8,058 nt of DNA, taken from positions 1 through 8,058 of IMG/VR virus record IMGVR_UViG_2585427776_000015. One strand, given 5' to 3'. This DNA comes from a virus. Its lineage: Duplodnaviria; Heunggongvirae; Uroviricota; Caudoviricetes. The notes beneath the pieces were generated by a model. It did not search any database, was not told the origin of the DNA, and saw only the letters and a list, made by a program, of their open reading frames with translations. The position numbers and the translations under genes were made by a program. Numbering within the stretch: position 1 is the stretch's first letter; each line of letters opens with the position of its first letter. This document shows positions 1 through 8,058 of the stretch, piece by piece.

Positions 1-544
1 ATGGAAGTCAACAAAAAGCAGCTGGCTGACATTTTCGGTGCGAGTATCCGTACCATTCAGAACTGGCAGGAACAGGGAATGCCCGTTCTGCGAGGCGGTG
101 GCAAGGGTAATGAGGTGCTTTATGACTCTGCCGCCGTTATAAAATGGTATGCCGAAAGGGATGCTGAAATTGAGAACGAAAAGCTGCGCCGGGAGGTTGA
201 AGAACTGCGGCAGTCCAGCGAGGCAGATCTCCAGCCAGGGACTATTGAGTACGAACGCCATCGACTTACGCGTGCGCAGGCCGACGCACAGGAACTGAAG
301 AATGCCAGAGACTCCGCTGAAGTGGTGGAAACCGCATTCTGTACTTTCGTGTTGTCGCGGATCGCAGGTGAAATTGCCAGTATTCTCGACGGGATCCCCC
401 TGTCGGTGCAGCGGCGTTTTCCGGAACTGGAAAACCGACATGTTGATTTCCTGAAACGGGATATCATCAAAGCCATGAACAAAGCAGCCGCGCTGGATGA
501 ACTGATACCTTACCGAAATCGGTACGGATACCGCGAAAGAGCAG

Positions 545-552
<8 letters not shown>
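1..552 (+). CDS. nu1: Phage terminase small subunit, lambda gpNu1-like; last ~10 residues diverge (deletion junction)
   Basis: 183-aa ORF; first ~170 aa (MEVNKKQLADIFGASIRTIQNWQEQGMPV...KAMNKAAALDELIP) match lambda Nu1 as I recall it, including the N-terminal HTH region. The tail (YRNRYGYRERADL) is not Nu1-like. ATG is at window position 1. Confidence 0.8.
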
Positions 553-1748
<1,196 letters not shown>

Positions 1749-1759
1749 TGAGCCGCTGA

Positions 1760-2227
1760 TGCTTGAACCCGCCTATTGCACCACCAGATATTCCGGCAGG
1801 CTTCGTGGCTGTTTTCAACAGTGATGAGGCATCGTGGCATCTCGTTGAAGACCATCGGGGTAAAACGGTTTATGACGTGGCTTCCGGCGACGCGTTATTT
1901 ATTTCTGAACTCGGTCCGTTACCGGAAAATGTTACCTGGTTATCCCCGGAAGGGGAGTTTCAGAAGTGGAACGGCACAGCCTGGGTGAAGGATACGGAAG
2001 CAGAAAAACTGTTCCGGATCCGGGAGGCGGAAGAAACAAAAAACAGCCTGATGCAGGTAGCCAGTGAGCATATTGCGCCGCTTCAGGATGCTGCAGATCT
2101 GGAAATCGCAACGGAGGAAGAAACCTCGTTGCTTGAAGCCTGGAAGAAGTATCGGGTGTTGCTGAATCGTGTTGATACATCAACTGCACCTGATATTGAG
2201 TGGCCCGCAATCCCTGTTATGGAATAA
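1760..2227 (+). pseudogene. tfa: Tail fiber assembly protein (Tfa) C-terminal fragment with no credible native start
   Basis: Translation ...[88 protein letters not shown]...[11 protein letters not shown] matches the C-terminal ~150 aa of lambda Tfa from memory. The frame opens just after a stop at 1757-1759, and the only in-frame start is a TTG at 1763 with no RBS. Confidence 0.75.
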
Positions 2228-2587
2228 TAGTTTTGTGATATGCCGCAGAAACGTTATATGCAATAACGTGCTGCGGTTGGCTGATGTACTTTCGAGAGTG
2301 TATTGAATAATTTCCAACCGTCATTAATTTTATTTATTTTTTGTATGAGAGGATTTGAACCTCCGAGCCTCGACACCTTATGACAACGCGATATTGCCTT
2401 GATGACCGCCATGTGCCAAAATAACCAATTGATAAATAAGTTGATTTTAATTGGTTGGAAGCAAGTCAGGTCAAATTCAGCATTCCGCTCTCTGTATCGG
2501 ATAGTTAAATTTTTCTATAACTGATAGTAATATGTTAAAACTCACACAGATAAATTATCATTGCTCAACAAGTATAATGGAGTTCCC
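2228..2587 (+). promoter_or_regulatory. Non-coding, AT-rich leader and putative promoter region of the McrB-like operon; contains two palindromes
   Basis: 360 bp with no ORF. Interrupted palindrome at 2243-2276 (ccgcagaaacgttat / ataacgtgctgcgg). Inverted repeat AACCAATT (2423-2430) / AATTGGTT (2449-2456) around two direct TTGAT. GGAG at 2579-2582 sits 5 nt before GTG 2588. I cannot place the -35/-10 boxes reliably. Confidence 0.3.
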
Positions 2588-4543
2588 GTGGATACAGCAG
2601 AACATGATGGCAAGTTTGCTTGGGCTAGTTTTTATGAGGCTTTTGCCAACGCGTTACTGACTTGGCGAAATCGTAGAGATGAATTAGTCAAAGGTATTCA
2701 TCTAATTGCCCCGGGTGTGGAAGGAATGTCCCATCTGCAGGACAAATCTATTATGGGAGAGATCTTTCCCTTAAAAGACATTTGTCCGTTTACTACTATG
2801 GGCTTGTTCAATCGTAACTTGACCGACAGCAATCGCAAAATTATTGCTGCCAAGCTAGCGAATTTGTTGGGCGTGAACGAACCGATTCCTGACTCCTTTG
2901 CCGGAATCCCTCTGTTGAATAACCAAAAATCTTGGTTCTTTGGTTATGAAAAGTCACGCGACCCTAATGACATTGAATGCTTGTGGGAAATGTTCTCACA
3001 GGCAATGACCTTTGCGGATAACCAGAATACTAACTCTGCAGACTTCACTGCCGCATATGACATCGCTTCTACAGTAATGAATGTCGGTTGGAATCTCACC
3101 ATGGGGTTGTACTGGACCCGTCCTTGGTTCTACCCCACTTTAGATAGCCAGTCGCAGTATTACATTCAGACAGTGTTAAACATTAAGATCATTAAAAACG
3201 GGGCAAAAGGTCGCTGTAGTGGACAAAGTTACCTGAGTCTTATGCGGGCGCTGAACGAGGTCTTTACCCAACCAAACTATCCGGTTCATTCTTTCCCAGA
3301 ACTTTCCTTATCAGCGTGGAATACAGATCTTAGCCAGTCTAAAGATGAGGTGGCAAATAGAACGTGGAAAGCCTCTTTACTGAATAAAATTAAGGCGTTA
3401 TGCCTGAAAAAAAATGGCCCTTATTTCACTGCTTCGGAGTTGGAAGAAAACTACTTGGACGTTTTCAAGGTAGAGCATCCTGAGAGCAAAACTGTTACAA
3501 GCTCAATCTACTTTTATCTACAGAAACTATGCAATGATGATGAGTTAAAGTCCCTCGAGTCCGGAAATTATGAATACCTGAATTTTGAGAAAAACGAATC
3601 CCAGACGATAACTGAGGAAACTGTCGAAGAGAGTGCGCTGTCGCCAAAACTCACCCACGTTCCTTATGACATCAGTCATCTGGTGCAGGATGGCTGTTTC
3701 TTGGAAGAGGCTAAGATCCAACTCACACTTCAGCGCCTGATCGACAAGAAAAACCTGATATTACAAGGACCACCCGGAACTGGAAAAACTTGGTTAGCGC
3801 GACGTCTGGCGTACTGCTTGATGGGAGAAAAAGCACCTGAGCGTATTAGCGCGGTGCAATTTCACCCGAACCTCTCTTACGAAGACTTTATTCGCGGCTG
3901 GCGTCCAGGTAAAGAAGGGCAATTGACGCTAATTGATGGACCTTTTGTAAATGCAATCAAAACTGCAGTCAATAATCCTACCTCGAAATATGTGGTGATA
4001 ATTGAAGAGATTAATCGTGGCAATCCGGCGCAAATCTTCGGTGAAACACTCACGTTGATGGAAGCAGATAAACGCACGCCGACTGAGGCATTATCTCTTT
4101 CCTATCCTAAAAATGCTGATGAAAAAATATACATTCCTGAGAATCTATATATCATCGGTACGATGAATATTGCAGACCGCTCACTCGCACTACTTGACCT
4201 AGCGCTGCGCCGTCGTTTCGCGTTTATCGATCTAAAGCCAGCTTTTAATGACGCGTGGAGAAACTGGGTAAATTATAATTACGCAATTGATTTTGACATG
4301 TTAGCATTCATCAAATCTCGACTGACGGTATTAAACGATATGCTGGCAAAAGATGTTACCTTAGGACCACAGTTTTGTATCGGTCACAGCTATGTCACCC
4401 CAGCTATCGGCCAAAAAATCAACGATGCCCAGGCTTGGTATGAACAAGTCGTTGATACAGAGATCTGCCCTTTGCTCGCCGAATATTGGTTCGATGCTCC
4501 AAATAAAGTCGATGAAGCCAGAAAAGTGTTATTAGCAAAATGA
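2588..4543 (+). CDS. McrB-family AAA+ GTPase with an N-terminal ~380-390 aa region of unknown family (Type IV restriction motor / specificity subunit homolog)
   Basis: C-terminal ~270 aa carry Walker A GPPGTGKT (3766-3789), Walker B-like VVIIEEINR (3993-4019), the McrB signature MNxxDRS (MNIADRS, 4163-4183) and RRRF, and align throughout with E. coli McrB from memory (ILQGPPGVGKTFVARRLAY..., YIIGLMNTADRSLAVVDYALRRRF). The N-terminal region shows no similarity I can recognise. The open frame begins at TTG 2561 (no RBS); GTG 2588 is preferred because of the GGAG 5 nt upstream; the first in-frame ATG is about codon 56. Confidence 0.85.
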   Translation: MDTAEHDGKFAWASFYEAFANALLTWRNRRDELVKGIHLIAPGVEGMSHLQDKSIMGEIFPLKDICPFTTMGLFNRNLTDSNRKIIAAKLANLLGVNEPIPDSFAGIPLLNNQKSWFFGYEKSRDPNDIECLWEMFSQAMTFADNQNTNSADFTAAYDIASTVMNVGWNLTMGLYWTRPWFYPTLDSQSQYYIQTVLNIKIIKNGAKGRCSGQSYLSLMRALNEVFTQPNYPVHSFPELSLSAWNTDLSQSKDEVANRTWKASLLNKIKALCLKKNGPYFTASELEENYLDVFKVEHPESKTVTSSIYFYLQKLCNDDELKSLESGNYEYLNFEKNESQTITEETVEESALSPKLTHVPYDISHLVQDGCFLEEAKIQLTLQRLIDKKNLILQGPPGTGKTWLARRLAYCLMGEKAPERISAVQFHPNLSYEDFIRGWRPGKEGQLTLIDGPFVNAIKTAVNNPTSKYVVIIEEINRGNPAQIFGETLTLMEADKRTPTEALSLSYPKNADEKIYIPENLYIIGTMNIADRSLALLDLALRRRFAFIDLKPAFNDAWRNWVNYNYAIDFDMLAFIKSRLTVLNDMLAKDVTLGPQFCIGHSYVTPAIGQKINDAQAWYEQVVDTEICPLLAEYWFDAPNKVDEARKVLLAK

Positions 4544-5661
4544 CGACAATAACCGGGAGTGAGCAACATACAGCATCACGTATTCCCATGCGAAATATCT
4601 GGATGCTGATGCTGTACGCTTCAGATCTGTTTCGCCAGTTAGGGCGCAATCAGATCGCAGTAGAAGATAACCCAGCAGAAATCCCCGACCTGGTGGCGAC
4701 AATCCTCCTTCATGAGATTACGCTGCGCCGACGTCGCAATTTAAATATGGGATACCAAACTTGTCATGCGGCCCTGAACCGGGTGAGAGGGCGCATTGAC
4801 ATACTGTATACTGCCAGTCATCAACTGCTGGAACGGGGACAGGTTGCCTGCCATTTTCAAGACATAACCCTCAACACCCCCCGAAATCGCTATGTTCGCT
4901 GTGCGTTAGAACGTCTGGCCTCAATCATAGTGAAACCGTCTTTGGCGGCAGATTGCCATTTTATGGCAATATCACTTCGCCGTGAGGGGATAAATGGAGG
5001 ATATCCTGCCCCCCACGAATTACCCTCAGTGTGGCGTTTTGGACGCCATGATGCCGCAGATAAACCGATGGTCGATGCCGCACGATTAGCTTTTGAACTG
5101 CTGATGCCGACCGAAGATCAAGGCCAATATCTTTTACCTGCGCCCTCAAATAACCTTTACTGGATGAGAAGACTATTTGAAAAAGGTATCGCTGGCTTAT
5201 ATCGTGTACACCTTGACAAAACAACTTGGCAGGTCTCTGCAGGGAAAGAGCTGAAATGGGCGTTGAGCGATCAAAGTGCAGGTAGTGCAGAGATTTTCCC
5301 GACAATGAAGTCAGACATTATTCTGGAACACAAGACTGCCCAGCGGCGTATTATTATCGATACCAAATTTAATTCGATTCTGACAAAGGGTTGGCATCGG
5401 GAGCAATCACTACGTAATGGCTATATTTATCAGCTATATACCTACCTTAGAACACAGGAGAACAAGACGGATCCGCTTTCGCTCAATGCCGCTGGTCTTC
5501 TACTTCATCCAGCTGTTGGCTATATGCTTAATGAGTATGTTGTCACTCAGGGACATAAGATCCATTTTGCTACAGTAGATATGACGGTAGATGCTAAAGC
5601 AATTAAAAAACAATTGCTGGCAATAGCCCATGATTGTGCAGGAGTCGCGGTTGATGACTAA
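4540..5661 (+). CDS. McrC-family PD-(D/E)xK endonuclease subunit (373 aa), translationally coupled to the McrB-like gene
   Basis: Start ATG overlaps the upstream stop (ATGA at 4540-4543). N-terminus IPMRNIWMLMLYAS resembles E. coli McrC IPVRNIYYMLTYAW. Nuclease core SDIILEHK...RRIIIDTKFNS (D259 at 5314-5316; D274-T-K276 at 5359-5367) parallels McrC ETDITI...ILIVDAKYY. The following NGYIYQLYTYL resembles McrC QNLYQLMNYL. Confidence 0.85.
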   Translation: MTTITGSEQHTASRIPMRNIWMLMLYASDLFRQLGRNQIAVEDNPAEIPDLVATILLHEITLRRRRNLNMGYQTCHAALNRVRGRIDILYTASHQLLERGQVACHFQDITLNTPRNRYVRCALERLASIIVKPSLAADCHFMAISLRREGINGGYPAPHELPSVWRFGRHDAADKPMVDAARLAFELLMPTEDQGQYLLPAPSNNLYWMRRLFEKGIAGLYRVHLDKTTWQVSAGKELKWALSDQSAGSAEIFPTMKSDIILEHKTAQRRIIIDTKFNSILTKGWHREQSLRNGYIYQLYTYLRTQENKTDPLSLNAAGLLLHPAVGYMLNEYVVTQGHKIHFATVDMTVDAKAIKKQLLAIAHDCAGVAVDD

Positions 5662-6017
5662 CCATCCTATAGGGCACTGGCTGTAATATAATCAATAGTT
5701 TCAATTAAGTAGCTGTTATCCGTGCTTAGTCATCATATGACGCACCACGGTCTAATTTTCCTGCTCATACATTGATATATCCTTGTCGTGCCCGGAAAGT
5801 CGCAGTCCACTATGAGGTATACCGATTGCCAGCACCAAAAGCTTCTTTGTGATTATTATATCGGGGAATGCCTATTTTTTTAGTGACAATATCAGATAGC
5901 AATTAATAAGCGGTGCCGGTAATGGATGTTATGTTTAATGTATAGACACAGCCATCATAAACTAAACGTCTGTTGTTCGCTCATAACCGACATTTATCTC
6001 AGTTATGGAGGATAATT

Positions 6018-6098
6018 ATGTATGCAGATAATGGGGCAGACAGTCGTGGAGTAAACAAGGTTTTGCACTGCTTGGCGGCATCGTTATCTTATTTTTAA
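6018..6098 (+). CDS. Hypothetical 26-aa small protein (MYADNGADSRGVNKVLHCLAASLSYF), speculative
   Basis: Consensus Shine-Dalgarno GGAGG (6007-6011) sits 6 nt upstream of the ATG, inside otherwise ORF-free AT-rich DNA. The C-terminal half is hydrophobic. There is no homology evidence; the call rests on the RBS only. Confidence 0.2.
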   Translation: MYADNGADSRGVNKVLHCLAASLSYF

Positions 6099-6141
6099 TT
6101 ATGTGCCTCTTAACATAAGTTGGGACAAAACAGAGACACAT

Positions 6142-6173
6142 AAGGTCTCACAAAGGTCTGCAAGGCCTCACAT
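6142..6173. repeat. Three tandem imperfect ~10-bp direct repeats (AAGGTCTCACA / AAGGTCTGCA / AGGCCTCACA)
   Basis: Read directly from the sequence at 6142-6152, 6153-6162 and 6163-6172. Spacing is one helical turn, as expected for an iterated protein-binding site. Confidence 0.5.
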
Positions 6174-6361
6174 GTATTGAGATGTTAATAAAATGTAGAC
6201 TTGTAATTTGGATATAAATGGTAGAGAAAACCTTTCCCCAAAATAAAAACGAACGTCAATGAAATCAAACGGTTGAATAAAGTTAATTTTGGCTAATAAA
6301 AAGACAATAAAATAATTTTTATCATTAAATATCAATGACTTGAATTCATGGTTTTTATATA

Positions 6362-6526
6362 CTGCTGCGCCATATGGGTTGGACTGAAGCGGCTGACCTG
6401 ATTGTTAAAGGTATGGAAGGCGCAATCAATGCCAAGACCGTAACTTATGACTTCGAACGTCTGATGGAAGGCGCTAAGCTGCTGAAATGTTCAGAGTTTG
6501 GTGAAGCGATCATCGAAAACATGTAA
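6362..6526 (+). pseudogene. icdC: icd 3' fragment: last 54 codons of isocitrate dehydrogenase plus stop, the duplicated attachment region (icdC-like)
   Basis: In-frame translation [54 protein letters not shown] matches the Icd C-terminus from memory. Homology begins abruptly at 6362, after AT-rich non-icd DNA. 165 bp, no start codon and no upstream icd sequence. Confidence 0.85.
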
Positions 6527-6628: not shown

Positions 6629-6952
6629 TTACTTGAGCCCATATGGGCATATTTTTATAATGCAACTATTATGTAAACATTTATTTGTTATTTTGCTTTC
6701 TCCTGGAGGACACTCTTGACTGCTTTTGAGTAAACTCCATAAATCCTTGTTGAATGGTGCGATGTGATAAATAGTAATAGGATATTCTTTATCCTTAAGG
6801 ATAATACCAGACTTAACCGGTGTAAATATACTGCCAGGAGGGAGAAATATAGTAGATTGATACCAGATGATCATTTTCATATTACCCCATATGGCTGAAA
6901 AAGATATACCACATGTAGGTTGAATTACCGTGTCAATTACTATCCACTTCAT
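6629..6952 (-). CDS. iraM: Anti-adaptor protein IraM-like (RssB inhibitor that stabilises RpoS), 107 aa
   Basis: 107-aa [46 protein letters not shown]... matches IraM (YcgW) in length and N-terminus as I recall it. Position and orientation, immediately after icdC and on the opposite strand, match the E. coli K-12 order icdC-iraM-ycgX. AT-rich gene with a long AT-rich upstream region. Confidence 0.7.
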
Positions 6953-7029
6953 TTGTTATGTCTTATCCCACGGTATTTAATATGGTTCATTAGGATGTTT
7001 ATTTCTTGATTTTGCATATGAGTATATTA

Positions 7030-7039
7030 CCCCCCCCCC
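7030..7039. repeat. C10 homopolymer followed by an A7 run, in the iraM-like upstream region
   Basis: Read directly: attaCCCCCCCCCCtcAAAAAAAt. It lies 78-87 bp upstream of the iraM-like start codon on the opposite strand. Confidence 0.9.
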
Positions 7040-7415
7040 TCAAAAAAATAAATTAATTAAAATGATGGCTTATATAAAATAAAATTTAAAGCAAGGAATC
7101 TCAATGGATGTTAAACAAAATGAGATTTTGTGAAAGCAATAAATTATTGACTTCGTTTTAGATTTGTTTAGCTATAATGTTATACATTCAAATGACTGAA
7201 CATCCTGTAATTAAAACATAGCCTTTATGCTACTTTGTGCCAATTTGCTAAACATTATGGTTGCCTTTTTATATAACGATAATAATGAATATAAGCATGA
7301 CATGAGAATAAGGTTTCAATTTTTGAGTTATATAGGAATGATTTAACCTGTTCCTGGCTAAAATACATATAACCGGATGATGACTAAACCAAAATACATG
7401 TGCGTTAAGTATTGA

Positions 7416-7447
7416 AACGGACGTGTGGCACGGCCGTTGTTTTTATA
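7416..7447 (+). terminator. Second, degenerate copy of the icd-terminator element: hairpin plus T-run with no + strand gene upstream
   Basis: Stem 7416-7425 / 7429-7438 (aacggacgtg..cacggccgtt, one mismatch) followed by gtttttata. The flanks (catgtgcgttaagtattgaaacgg...) are homologous to 6536-6585 (catgtgttaaatattgaaacgg...). Confidence 0.35.
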
Positions 7448-7653
7448 AATATGTTAACCGTTATAAAATAACGTATCAAAAGTCAAGTGATCACATTTCA
7501 AATATCAAGTTGATAGTATTAGTCTGGTGATTATTTATGGGTGACAATAAAAAGACAGTATTAATCATCCATAGAGATAGTCTCTGCACTTTTATTTCCA
7601 TTATGCTAATGCCTTACTGAATTATGAAGCATTTCTTAAGTATCCAACTTTAG

Positions 7654-8058
7654 CTAGATTAATGGTTTATTATTTTCTACATCTTCAATATATAAAAGCG
7701 TATTATCAATGGCGTAGTAACTGCGTTTGTTATGATTAACATCAGTAACCCACCGGAAAACGCCCGCGCCTGCCAGTGTTGAACAGTATTCCCGAAATGT
7801 AGATTTTCCGCAAATATGAAGCAATGCGGCCTCTTTTATTTTAGCAGGGTTCTTGGTCGTACTAACTTTTAACAGGTTCCTGGTTCCTCTTAATAACAAA
7901 ACCGTATCATCGTGAGTAATAATTCTGATGTTATCCGTAGCCAGATAATAAATGTAATGTGCAATACGGTGATGTTTTAATTCTGAATAAAACCAGGAGA
8001 AGTTTTGCTCTTTTCTCACTTGCTCAAACATCTTTTGAAAAACAACGACCTGATCCAT
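7654..8058 (-). CDS. ycgX: DUF1398-family protein, YcgX-like (134 aa); start codon at the window edge
   Basis: 134-aa ORF MDQVVVFQKMFEQVRKEQNFSWFYSELKHHRIAHYIYYLATDN...AGAGVFRWVTDV... resembles the E. coli YcgX/YbcV/YdfO (DUF1398) family as I recall it. The position next to iraM matches the K-12 order. ATG occupies 8056-8058, so the true start may lie beyond the window. Confidence 0.5.
   Translation of the reverse strand: MDQVVVFQKMFEQVRKEQNFSWFYSELKHHRIAHYIYYLATDNIRIITHDDTVLLLRGTRNLLKVSTTKNPAKIKEAALLHICGKSTFREYCSTLAGAGVFRWVTDVNHNKRSYYAIDNTLLYIEDVENNKPLI

What the first reader, a model, noticed from the sequence alone, without database searches (positions are those of the whole stretch)
5662..6361. 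The cargo slot next to icdC holds McrBC-like genes where K-12 e14 carries mcrA
In E. coli K-12 the e14 element sits at icd, and its end adjacent to the icd 3' duplicate carries pinE and mcrA (an HNH Type IV restriction enzyme), with lit at the other end. Here the same topological position, between tail-fibre-assembly remnants and icdC, holds a different modification-dependent restriction homolog. That suggests this prophage end is an exchangeable defence-gene slot and may hold other novel cargo in related strains.
Basis: partly seen in the sequence, partly recalled or inferred. Interest (0 to 1): 0.6.

Follow-up and report, generated by a model that had tools for sequence, protein, structure and literature searches.

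The report
Prophage cargo slot with McrBC-like genes
Next to the icd gene of E. coli, the non-essential end of a phage-21-like prophage carries an intact but uncharacterised McrBC-type restriction system; related strains carry a metal transporter or other genes in the same slot, which is a known kind of prophage cargo region.

Summary
Window 5662-6361 is the non-coding stretch between an McrC-like gene and icdC. The locus is the icd attR junction, followed by iraM and ycgX.

The prophage is not e14. It is a decayed lambda-like prophage whose last 240 bp (6122-6361) are the phage 21 attP arm. The e14 arm in K-12 is unrelated, and the two elements share only attB.

Counts in 5,426 complete E. 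coli genomes:
- 1,466 have the phage-21-type arm at icdC.
- About 734 of these slots hold the phage-21 arrangement (sitABCD plus an ORF).
- About 294 hold sitABCD alone.
- About 290-300 hold this McrBC-like cassette.
- About 103 hold an HTH/acetyltransferase set.

So the slot is exchangeable, but most of its cargo is not defence. e14-type ends nearly always carry pinE-mcrA; one carries an acyltransferase and a GIY-YIG nuclease.

The cassette is a complete McrBC-family module whose McrB has a DUF8425 plus DpnI-like winged-helix sensor. This architecture has been noted in the literature but never characterised. It is an imported unit of about 3.2 kb (2480-5722) also found in seven other genera.

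In passing: a 24-nt dyad motif (5968-5991) marks mosaic breakpoints in many prophages.

The parts
1..552 (+). Small terminase subunit gene (lambda Nu1 type); the left part of a decayed lambda-like prophage
   Evidence: Pfam Phage_Nu1 3.4e-100
680..1748 (+). Remnants of head genes: the end of terminase A (680-898), gpW (895-1101), and the 5' part of the lambda-family portal gene (1098-1748). Internal deletions join the portal gene to tfa.
   Evidence: Pfam GpA_nuclease, gpW and Phage_portal_2. Deletion end points come from blastn against the intact prophage L002: window 1502-1730 = L002 1-229, window 1728-1776 = L002 1208-1256, and window 1774 onward = L002 19547 onward.
1763..2227 (+). 3' part of the tail fibre assembly gene (tfa); the left border of the cargo slot
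   Evidence: Pfam Caudo_TAP 1.5e-44. It corresponds to the 585-bp tfa of the intact prophage in NZ_AP027748.
2243..2278 (.). Palindromic hairpin just downstream of tfa. Cassette matches in other genomes start at 2228, 2245 or 2257.
   Evidence: Read from the sequence. The same 36 bp occur inside the slot of an e14-type prophage (L016 4715-4750, 91.7% identity).
2480..5722 (+). Imported McrBC-family unit. This is the only part of the slot shared with other genera, at about 87% nucleotide identity.
   Evidence: blastn against loci from Salmonella, Pectobacterium, Citrobacter, Buttiauxella, Serratia, Erwinia and Lonsdalea. The left edge is at 2480 in 6 of 8 loci, and the right edge lies between 5655 and 5722.
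2561..4543 (+). McrB-like subunit. Domains in order: DUF8425 (about residues 16-255), a DpnI-like winged helix (about 258-340), then the McrB AAA+ GTPase and lid (378-652). The start may be GTG at 2588, as in RefSeq (651 aa).
4540..5661 (+). McrC-like nuclease subunit. Its ATG overlaps the McrB stop codon (ATGA).
   Evidence: Pfam McrBC. NF007277 scores above its cutoff. In the alignment to EcoK McrC (6hz4_M), 'mksdiile...riiidtkf' aligns with 'metditi...ilivdaky'. By my own recollection, that stretch holds EcoK McrC's D...D-x-K nuclease residues.
5662..6361 (.). The interval of the finding: the non-coding right end of the prophage. It contains the 3' flank of the imported unit (up to about 5722), 245 bp found only with this cassette, slot backbone shared with phage 21 from 5968 onward, and then the attP arm.
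5968..5991 (+). 24-nt dyad motif, GTCTGTTGTTCGCTCATAACCGAC. Similarity to phage 21 and 4A7 begins here.
   Evidence: One copy in the window against 0 expected. Alignment A4. The same motif follows the McrBC unit in other genera.
6018..6098 (+). 26-codon ORF with a GGAGG Shine-Dalgarno at 6007-6011. Its upstream region and start are similar to those of phage 21 CPT_21_32, a 51-aa putative membrane protein. It is probably a truncated remnant.
   Evidence: Sequence, alignment and phage 21 annotation
6122..6181 (-). 60-bp element that opens the shared arm. On the - strand it predicts a long hairpin followed by a short U run. It is also present next to attR of DLP12. Inferred to be a tI/sib-like terminator of the int transcript.
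   Evidence: Terminator-like site. Fold energy -19.5 kcal/mol with z -1.6. Present at other loci in many genomes and in DLP12. Its position is like that of lambda tI, whose hairpin I read from the sequence.
6122..6361 (.). Phage-21-type attP P arm (the attR arm)
   Evidence: 91.7-93.7% identity to phage 21 (M61865, OL657228), 4A7, ev017 and other phages. Present next to icdC in 1,466 of 5,426 genomes.
6232..6243 (+). Arm-type integrase site, CTTTCCCCAAAA
   Evidence: Perfect match to the consensus YYTTCCCCAAAA annotated in phage 21
6363..6526 (+). icdC: the displaced original 3' end of icd, with the crossover region at its start
   Evidence: Identity with K-12 starts at 6363. Pfam Iso_dh.
6629..8058 (-). 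Host genes iraM (6629-6952) and ycgX (7654-8058)
   Evidence: 99.8% identity to K-12. DUF1398.

Best explanation
The interval is the right end of a decayed, phage-21-type lambdoid prophage inserted in icd.

Between the tail fibre assembly gene and the attP arm, this phage family has a non-essential stretch equivalent to the lambda b region. Foreign modules are inserted there. In this window the module is an imported two-gene McrBC-family Type IV restriction system with its own upstream region.

The likely mechanism is inferred from EcoKMcrBC. The McrB-like subunit would bind a modified base through its N-terminal DUF8425 plus winged-helix module. It would then assemble into a GTP-driven AAA+ ring. 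The ring would activate McrC, a PD-(D/E)xK nuclease, to cut incoming phage or plasmid DNA, which protects the lysogen and therefore the prophage.

The right border of the slot is fixed. The phage must keep its attP arm, including the arm-type Int site and probably a terminator for the int transcript.

Shown here: gene identities, attP arm identity, slot variability and module borders.
Inferred: restriction activity, target, expression and the terminator role.
For: Locus and phage type:
-. An intact lambda-like prophage (J, lom, stf, tfa) carries the same cassette, arm and icdC in NZ_AP027748.

Slot variability in 5,426 genomes:
- 1,466 genomes have the phage-21-type arm.
- The cassette is in 289-301.
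- The phage-21-type arrangement is in 734.
- The sitA-proximal class is in 294.
- The HTH/acetyltransferase class is in 103.
- The icd 3' end has about 1,900 extra copies. The 1,466 phage-21-type and 337 e14-type arms nearly account for them.

Generality of the slot:
- DLP12 has appY-ompT between a tfa remnant and the same 60-bp arm element.

Module:
- McrB AAA+ domain matches with E 5.7e-76, with Walker A GPPGTGKT and MNIADRS aligned.
- McrC scores above the NCBIfam cutoff, and 'sdiile...iidtkf' aligns with EcoK McrC 'tditi...ivdaky'.
- Both ORFs are intact at 98.7% identity or more in about 290 genomes.
- The unit borders, 2480 and 5655-5722, reproduce across seven genera and unrelated contexts: CP4-like islands, and chromosomal sites next to GmrSD and ScoMcrA-like genes.

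Sensor:
-.
Against: - No experiment exists for this subfamily. [quoted passage not shown]
- The window protein does not hit the DpnI_C HMM itself or DpnI by sequence. The winged-helix assignment rests on a predicted structure and on orthologues.
- PADLOC has no McrC hit for it.
- Other winged-helix nucleases are toxic in Dam+ E. coli. A Dam-GATC target would therefore kill this host, and the target remains unknown.
- The prophage in the window is defective, so the cassette could be a relic. A few genomes have IS insertions or truncations in it (H19, H28, H39).
- No isolated phage in the INPHARED collection carries it.
- The terminator reading of 6122-6181 has weak fold support (z -1.6).
Confidence: 0.8

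Rival explanations
1. One reading: this is the e14 element, and its defence slot has exchanged mcrA for McrBC-like genes by replacement within one element family.
For: The attB site is the same and the topological position next to icdC is the same. Both cargos are Type IV restriction homologues. An e14-type prophage with different cargo (acyltransferase plus GIY-YIG) does exist.
Against: The arms flanking icdC are unrelated. The window arm is that of phage 21. The structural genes are lambda-type, not e14-type. The 337 e14-type arms are joined to pinE-mcrA in 329 genomes and never, in the rows seen, to this cassette.
Confidence: 0.04
2. The cassette is a decaying passenger with no current function. 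It is kept only because the prophage remnant is fixed in some lineages.
For: The prophage in the window has lost most head and tail genes. Some genomes carry IS-disrupted or truncated copies. Much of the 290-genome count may reflect clonal inheritance.
Against: Both ORFs are full length. The motifs aligned with EcoKMcrB's Walker A and MNTADRS, and with the EcoK McrC stretch that I recall holds its nuclease residues, are conserved. The same unit is 93-96% identical across seven other genera in unrelated contexts, which indicates recent spread and selection. It is also present in an apparently intact prophage.
Confidence: 0.1
3. The system is a DpnI-like, Dam (G6mATC)-dependent restriction system, as the winged-helix domain suggests.
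Against: By my own knowledge, E. coli and the other Enterobacterales hosts are Dam+. Other winged-helix nucleases reduce transformation 100-1,000-fold in Dam+ E. coli. The window protein itself does not reach the DpnI_C model.
Confidence: 0.05

Closest known systems
EcoKMcrBC (Type IV, GTP-dependent, modification-dependent restriction)
   Same: Two overlapping genes. The McrB AAA+ GTPase core matches with E 5.7e-76 (residues 378-652), with Walker A and MNxADRS aligned. The McrC partner aligns with the EcoK McrC stretch that I recall holds the D...D-x-K residues, and scores above the NCBIfam McrC cutoff.
   Different: The 160-residue 5mC-binding N-terminal domain of EcoKMcrB is replaced by about 370 residues (DUF8425 plus a winged helix). 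McrB scores 263 bits against the 637-bit equivalog cutoff. McrC gives only a weak direct match to EcoK McrC (59 bits, E 3.8e-15). It sits in a prophage rather than in the hsd-mrr immigration control region.
NTD-wH-NTPase/McrC-like putative Type IV systems (Front Microbiol 2024, PMC11037411)
   Same: [quoted passage not shown]
   Different: That class was defined only by sequence analysis and never characterised. Its proposed 6mA dependence fits poorly with residence in Dam+ E. coli.
Phage 21 and its relatives (4A7, ev017, NC-SV) integrated at icd
   Same: The attP arm, the arm-type site and the icd target are the same, and the lambda-like gene order is the same. The slot is the same one between the tail fibre genes and the arm.
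   Different: Those phages carry sitABCD, with or without a 759-bp ORF, in the slot. This one carries the McrBC-like unit, inserted to the right of a segment (window 2259-2364) that in phage 21 lies on the other side of sitABCD.
e14 of E. coli K-12 (pinE-mcrA next to icdC)
   Same: The attB site in icd is the same. A Type IV restriction gene sits at the attR end.
   Different: The arm, the presumed integrase specificity, the virion genes and the nuclease family (McrA is HNH) all differ.
Prophage cargo hotspots: the lambda b region and morons; P2/P4 defence hotspots (PMC9122126); dedicated cargo positions in E. coli mobile elements (PMC10121019)
   Same: A fixed position flanked by conserved phage functions, with content that differs between otherwise similar prophages.
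   Different: Here the commonest cargo is a metal transporter rather than defence genes. DLP12 holds appY-ompT in the equivalent place.

Membership tests
McrBC family (Type IV restriction) | McrB-type AAA+ GTPase domain with Walker A and the MNxxDRS signature | tested here: met
   phmmer against 6hz4_A gives E 5.7e-76 over residues 378-652. GPPGTGKT and MNIADRS align with GPPGVGKT and MNTADRS. Pfam AAA_5 8e-27.
McrBC family (Type IV restriction) | Adjacent McrC subunit with a PD-(D/E)xK nuclease motif | tested here: met
   Pfam McrBC 4.5e-21. NF007277 scores 355.3 bits against a cutoff of 338. 'sdiile...iidtkf' aligns with 'tditi...ivdaky' of 6hz4_M; that this stretch holds EcoK McrC's catalytic D, D and K is my recollection. 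The start codon overlaps the McrB stop codon.
McrBC family (Type IV restriction) | EcoKMcrB-type N-terminal 5mC-binding domain (equivalog of EcoK McrB) | tested here: not met
   NF008457 scores 262.6 bits against a cutoff of 637 and matches only residues 378-654. The N-terminal 378 residues have no hit in the local Pfam copy.
McrBC family (Type IV restriction) | GTP-dependent cleavage of modified DNA only | not testable with these tools
   Requires biochemistry or phage challenge.
NTD-wH-NTPase/McrC-like class (PMC11037411) | [quoted passage not shown] | tested here: met
NTD-wH-NTPase/McrC-like class (PMC11037411) | Sequence-level match of the winged helix to Pfam DpnI_C | tested here: not met
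   No hit for the window protein at E up to 10, and no DpnI match by phmmer. Orthologues at 66-83% identity do match; the hit is marked weak for Pectobacterium and unmarked for Enterobacter hormaechei.
NTD-wH-NTPase/McrC-like class (PMC11037411) | Dependence on N6-methyladenine | not testable with these tools
   There is only an indirect argument against a Dam-GATC target.
Phage-21-type integration module at icd | attP P arm homologous to phage 21, ending at the icd crossover region | tested here: met
   Window 6122-6361 is 91.7% identical to M61865 and OL657228. Alignment A4. icdC starts at 6363.
Phage-21-type integration module at icd | Arm-type Int site YYTTCCCCAAAA | tested here: met
   Perfect match at 6232-6243. 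The consensus is taken from the phage 21 annotation.
Phage-21-type integration module at icd | Phage-21-type integrase and excisionase at the other prophage end | not tested
   The attL end lies outside the window and was not fetched for a cassette-bearing genome.
e14 element | e14 attR arm and e14 structural genes (baseplate J, ymfQ, stfP/tfaP, pinE) | tested here: not met
   The arms are unrelated. The window has lambda-type Nu1, gpW and portal genes, unlike e14.
Prophage defence hotspot in the sense of P2/P4 (PMC9122126) | Fixed position with variable content between conserved flanks | tested here: met
   Four cargo classes lie behind one conserved arm.
Prophage defence hotspot in the sense of P2/P4 (PMC9122126) | Content is mostly anti-phage systems | tested here: not met
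   About 70% of phage-21-type ends fall in the two sitABCD classes. All five inspected loci of those classes carry sitABCD.

The most novel reading that the evidence does not exclude
The 24-nt dyad motif GTCYGYTnnTCGCTCATARCnGAC (window 5968-5991) may be a dedicated junction site at which accessory cassettes are exchanged. The McrBC unit, other defence genes and metabolic genes would all be such cassettes. Exchange would occur between lambdoid prophages (the att-proximal slot and the P|nin border) and chromosomal islands of Enterobacterales. The motif could serve as a recombinase or nuclease target or as a minimal homology linker. This would give the 'exchangeable slot' a defined sequence mechanism, somewhat like integron attC sites.

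A second, smaller possibility: the DUF8425-winged-helix McrBC recognises a phage DNA modification other than Dam 6mA or 5mC.
Probability: 0.15. Interest if true: 0.75.

Novelty: new member of a known kind. Interest (0 to 1): 0.3.

Why it matters
The result corrects a tempting analogy: e14 and this prophage share only their landing site, not their ends.

It gives a first census of what phage-21-type prophages carry next to icd in E. coli. Roughly 70% carry a metal-uptake operon, 20% carry an uncharacterised McrBC variant, and 7% carry an acetyltransferase set.

The McrBC variant is present in about 5% of complete E. coli genomes and has spread recently through at least seven other genera. Its target is unknown and cannot be ordinary Dam methylation, so it is a reasonable candidate for a new Type IV specificity.

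Beyond that, the slot itself is an instance of a well-known phenomenon.

Tried and rejected
- tRNA fragment at the left border: the stretch at 2340-2400 looked like a tRNA T-arm, but ARAGORN found nothing and Rfam gave only noise. I dropped the idea.
- Known RNA in the gap: Rfam on the whole window at E up to 1 gave only IS009 inside tfa and a spurious snoRNA. The svsR sRNA of the related NC-SV prophage lies at cI, not here.
- Origin of 5662-6121: a search against plasmids gave one weak 110-bp hit.
- Phages carrying the cassette: none in the INPHARED collection by DNA or by protein. The IMG/VR hits are E. coli prophage predictions with the same locus.
- XerCD/dif-like reading of the motif: I considered it by eye and rejected it, because the right arm is not conserved.
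- Motif as the start of a small gene (ATGAGCGA... on the opposite strand): rejected, because the ORFs are 3-79 aa long and unrelated after six codons.
- RNA hairpin covariation in the motif stem: weak and inconclusive.
- PADLOC: no McrC hit, and only generic 'REase_II' hits for the ATPase.
- H110, a distinct arm breakpoint, turned out to be an engineered K-12 strain with a construct at the phage 21 att site.
Full report
**1. What is in the window**

The window reads as follows:
- Small terminase Nu1 gene (1-552).
- The last part of terminase A (680-898).
- gpW (895-1101).
- The first half of a lambda-family portal gene (1098-1748).
- The 3' part of a tail fibre assembly gene (1763-2227).
- A 660-aa AAA+ protein (2561-4543).
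- A 373-aa McrC-family protein (4540-5661).
- A 700-bp gap (5662-6361).
- A 50-codon end of isocitrate dehydrogenase (6374-6526).
- On the other strand, a 107-aa ORF (6629-6952) and a DUF1398 protein (7654-8058).

G+C falls from about 55% in the phage genes to 38-47% over the two restriction genes and to 35% in the gap.

From 6360 to the end, the window is 99.8% identical to E. coli K-12 icdC-iraM-ymgK-ymgL-ycgX. The locus is therefore the attR side of the icd integration site.

**2. The prophage is of phage 21 type, not e14**

I aligned the K-12 stretch with the window. There is no similarity until TGCTGCGCCATATGGG at window 6363, and from there the two are identical.

A search of phage records shows that window 6122-6361 is the arm next to the icd-like segment of phage 21. 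It is 91.7% identical to M61865 and to the complete genome OL657228. It is 93.7% identical to 4A7 and related phages.

The arm contains a perfect copy (6232-6243) of the arm-type site consensus annotated in phage 21.

In strain 2017.02.03CC the same cassette, arm and icdC sit at the end of an apparently complete lambda-like prophage. That prophage has capsid, tail, J, lom, side tail fibre and tfa genes. The window's copy has two internal deletions that join the portal gene to tfa.

It is published that phage 21 and e14 use the same attB with different integration specificities (Wang et al. 1997, cited in PMC12803456). The comparison with e14 is therefore one of position only.

**3. How variable is the slot?**

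All counts below are among 5,426 complete E. coli genomes.

| Feature | Genomes |
|---|---|
| icd 3' end, chromosomal places in 5,414 genomes | 7,314 places, about 1,900 extra copies |
| Phage-21-type arm next to the icd fragment | 1,466 |
| e14-type arm | 337 |

Together the two arm types nearly account for all occupied sites.

Behind the phage-21-type arm I found four classes:

| Cargo class | Genomes |
|---|---|
| Phage-21 arrangement: a 759-bp ORF and a small ORF | 734 |
| sitA close to the arm | 294 |
| This cassette | 289 (whole 4.1 kb) to 301 (the 700-bp gap) |
| HTH plus acetyltransferase, with IS66, ompT and a hydrolase further left | 103 |

- sitABCD was confirmed in phage 21, ev017 and IHE3034 for the first class.
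- sitABCD was confirmed in 4A7 and OZ038535 for the second class.
- These four classes cover about 97% of the phage-21-type ends.

The e14-type arm is joined to pinE-mcrA in 329 of 337 genomes. In 308 of the 337, the arm is at least 99% identical to K-12, and many listed hits are laboratory K-12 derivatives. Strain PEC165 has an e14-type prophage with an acyltransferase and a GIY-YIG protein instead. It sits in tandem with a phage-21-type prophage.

DLP12 of K-12 shows the same layout at another att site: tfa remnant, appY, ompT, then the 60-bp arm element and attR.

The stretch between tfa and the attP arm is thus a general cargo region of lambdoid prophages. It holds defence genes in a minority of cases. 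This matches the known behaviour of the lambda b region and of morons. It also matches published statements that a given mobile element carries different cargo at dedicated positions (PMC10121019; PMC9122126).

**4. The cassette**

*McrB-like subunit, C-terminal part.*
- Residues 378-652 align with EcoKMcrB (E 5.7e-76).
- Walker A (GPPGTGKT) and the MNxADRS motif are conserved.
- The protein fails the NCBIfam McrB equivalog cutoff (263 against 637 bits) because the N-terminal 370 residues are different.

*McrB-like subunit, N-terminal part.*
- These residues have no hit in the local Pfam copy.
- The precomputed domain string for the 99%-identical cluster representative and its relatives is DUF8425 (PF28527), McrB_lid (PF28529) and AAA_5.
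- Orthologues at 66-83% identity add DpnI_C (PF17726).
- AlphaFold models built on 38-43 homologues are confident (pLDDT 83.5 for the full length and 88.6 for residues 1-355).
- The models show a helical domain (about residues 16-255) followed by a winged helix (about 258-340).
- DUF8425 has no convincing structural relative.

*McrC-like subunit.*
- It passes the NCBIfam McrC cutoff.
- Its 'sdiile...iidtkf' aligns with the EcoK McrC stretch that, by my recollection, holds the catalytic D...D-x-K residues.
- Its ATG overlaps the McrB stop codon, as in the orthologues.

*Literature.* Exactly this architecture, 'NTD-wH-NTPase' paired with an McrC-like protein, was listed in a 2024 survey of winged-helix restriction enzymes. 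That survey said it remained unstudied after one failed purification (PMC11037411).

*Likely target.* Other winged-helix nucleases in that study were 100-1,000-fold toxic in Dam+ E. coli. This system lives in E. coli and in other Enterobacterales that I know to be Dam+. I therefore infer that its target is not ordinary Dam methylation. What it senses is unknown.

**5. Borders of the imported unit**

Only window 2480 to 5655-5722 is shared with other genera, at about 87% identity. Those genera are Salmonella, Pectobacterium, Citrobacter, Buttiauxella, Serratia, Erwinia and Lonsdalea.

Among themselves those copies are 93-96% identical over about 3.4 kb, despite unrelated surroundings:
- CP4-like integrative islands with RadC, an antirestriction protein, DUF932 and CbtA/CbeA.
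- Plain chromosomal sites.

A more distant Enterobacter hormaechei copy (about 70% identity) sits near SymE, ScoMcrA-like and GmrSD genes.

The donor form extends further left into a glyoxalase-like gene remnant. That remnant holds a Chi sequence about 25 nt from the point where the E. coli copy begins.

Inside the E. coli slot the remaining pieces are local backbone:
- 2228-2278, a hairpin after tfa, also occurs in the PEC165 e14-type slot.
- 2259-2364 also occurs in phage 21, but on the far side of sitABCD.
- A 57-bp piece of the tfa 3' end (window 2108-2164) survives in phage 21 just before sitD.

sitABCD and the McrBC unit were therefore inserted at different points of one ancestral backbone.

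**6. Anatomy of 5662-6361**

| Coordinates | Content |
|---|---|
| 5662-5722 | 3' flank of the imported unit, with a degraded copy of the hairpin that follows McrC in the donors |
| 5723-5967 | 245 bp seen only with this cassette |
| 5968-5991 | 24-nt dyad motif (section 7) |
| 6018-6098 | 26-codon ORF with a good Shine-Dalgarno. Its upstream region resembles that of a 51-aa phage 21 ORF. It looks truncated. |
| 6122-6181 | 60-bp element that starts the arm |
| 6182-6361 | A+T-rich arm with the arm-type site |

The 60-bp element:
- is shared by all cargo classes;
- is present at other loci in many genomes, including DLP12 attR;
- predicts a long hairpin followed by a short U run on the - strand.

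By position it resembles lambda tI/sib, which lies 150-190 bp from the lambda core (sequence). That analogy rests on my reading, and the fold z-score is only -1.6.

**7. A junction motif, noticed in passing**

*Where it occurs.*
- The sequence GTCYGYTnnTCGCTCATARCnGAC is where similarity between the window and phage 21, 4A7 and OZ038535 begins.
- It follows the McrBC unit in Pectobacterium, Citrobacter (a variant), Buttiauxella, Erwinia and Lonsdalea, after which those sequences diverge.
- It lies left of the unit in Buttiauxella and Serratia.
- The window has one copy against 0 expected.

*How widespread it is.*
- The three positions not fixed by the pattern are GAC in 88% of these, which completes a 7-bp dyad.

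*What it is not.*
- ORFs that would start at the ATGAGCGA on the other strand are 3-79 aa long and unrelated, so it is not coding.
- Rfam has nothing matching it.
- A literature search by sequence found nothing.

*What lies next to it.*
- The flanking genes are a mix of accessory genes: GNAT acetyltransferases, defence reverse transcriptases, ArsC, SRAP, CbtA, AIPR and APH.
- Conserved phage genes also flank it. Lambda P ends 5-25 nt from the motif in 11 contexts, and integrases flank it in 4.
- Pairs of direct copies 1-3.5 kb apart bracket single cassettes in several loci.

*Breakpoint test.* In an all-against-all comparison of 96 contexts, 61 pairs share only one flank at the motif and 30 pairs share both. 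Control cuts 100-150 nt away give 0-15 one-sided pairs. Many of the one-sided pairs may come from the P|nin group.

*Reading.* The motif marks mosaic breakpoints. The data do not tell whether it is a protein target, a repeat that offers minimal homology, or an RNA element.

**8. Verdict**

The element is not e14, the slot is not a defence slot in particular, and the general idea is established.

The cassette is a new, intact and fairly common member of an uncharacterised McrBC subclass. The junction motif is the least expected thing found here and deserves its own follow-up.

Noticed in passing
window 5968-5991; also L003 6853-6876, L031 9633-9656 and 13166-13189, L013 11136-11159, L034 13160-13183 and 15221-15244, L035 13170-13193: A 24-nt dyad motif, GTCYGYTnnTCGCTCATARCnGAC, sits at mosaic breakpoints. 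It occurs in the icd slot, after the McrBC unit in other genera, 5-25 nt after the lambda P gene, and between single accessory or defence cassettes. It has at least 92 distinct contexts in IMG/VR. It is not coding, not in Rfam, and was not found in the literature by sequence.
   Followed up: partly
window 2480-5722; L010, L013, L029, L031-L035: The McrBC-like unit is 93-96% identical over about 3.4 kb among seven genera in unrelated contexts. Those copies carry a glyoxalase-like gene remnant and a Chi site at the left end. The E. coli copy is 87% identical and is cut about 25 nt past the Chi site.
   Followed up: partly
window 6122-6181; L019 3001-3060: A 60-bp hairpin-forming element opens the phage-21-type arm. 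It is also found next to attR of DLP12, after appY-ompT, and at other loci in many E. coli genomes. In phage 21 it is annotated as the 3' end of a 51-aa ORF. It may be a tI/sib-like terminator.
   Followed up: partly
L016 (NZ_CM168018, strain PEC165): An e14-type prophage carries an acyltransferase and a LEM-3-like GIY-YIG protein instead of pinE-mcrA. It lies in tandem with a phage-21-type prophage, with an icd fragment between the two.
   Followed up: no
window 2243-2278; L016 4715-4750: A 36-bp palindrome just after tfa is shared at 91.7% identity with the cargo slot of the e14-type prophage of PEC165, between its two cargo genes.
   Followed up: no
window 1986-2184: A full-length Rfam IS009 match (220.9 bits, E 7.5e-55) lies inside the tail fibre assembly gene.
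   Followed up: no
window 506-1776: The prophage is defective. Most of terminase A is missing, and two deletions join the portal gene to a 49-bp piece and then to tfa. Related genomes have similar but not identical decay; no complete genome holds the whole window (best: 95% coverage, strain 74-2).
   Followed up: partly
window 4540 and 2561/2588: RefSeq annotates McrC from a later start (357 aa) and the ATPase as 651 aa from a GTG. The ATGA overlap at 4540, and the 377-383-aa McrC of orthologues that also overlap the McrB stop codon, favour the longer McrC.
   Followed up: partly
window 6018-6098: A 26-codon ORF with a GGAGG Shine-Dalgarno. Its upstream region and first codons resemble a 51-aa putative membrane protein of phage 21 (CPT_21_32). 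It is probably a truncated remnant.
   Followed up: no
L008 (NZ_CP174268): An engineered K-12 derivative carries luxR and other foreign genes at the phage 21 att site inside icd, upstream of e14. It explains an odd arm breakpoint in the search results.
   Followed up: yes
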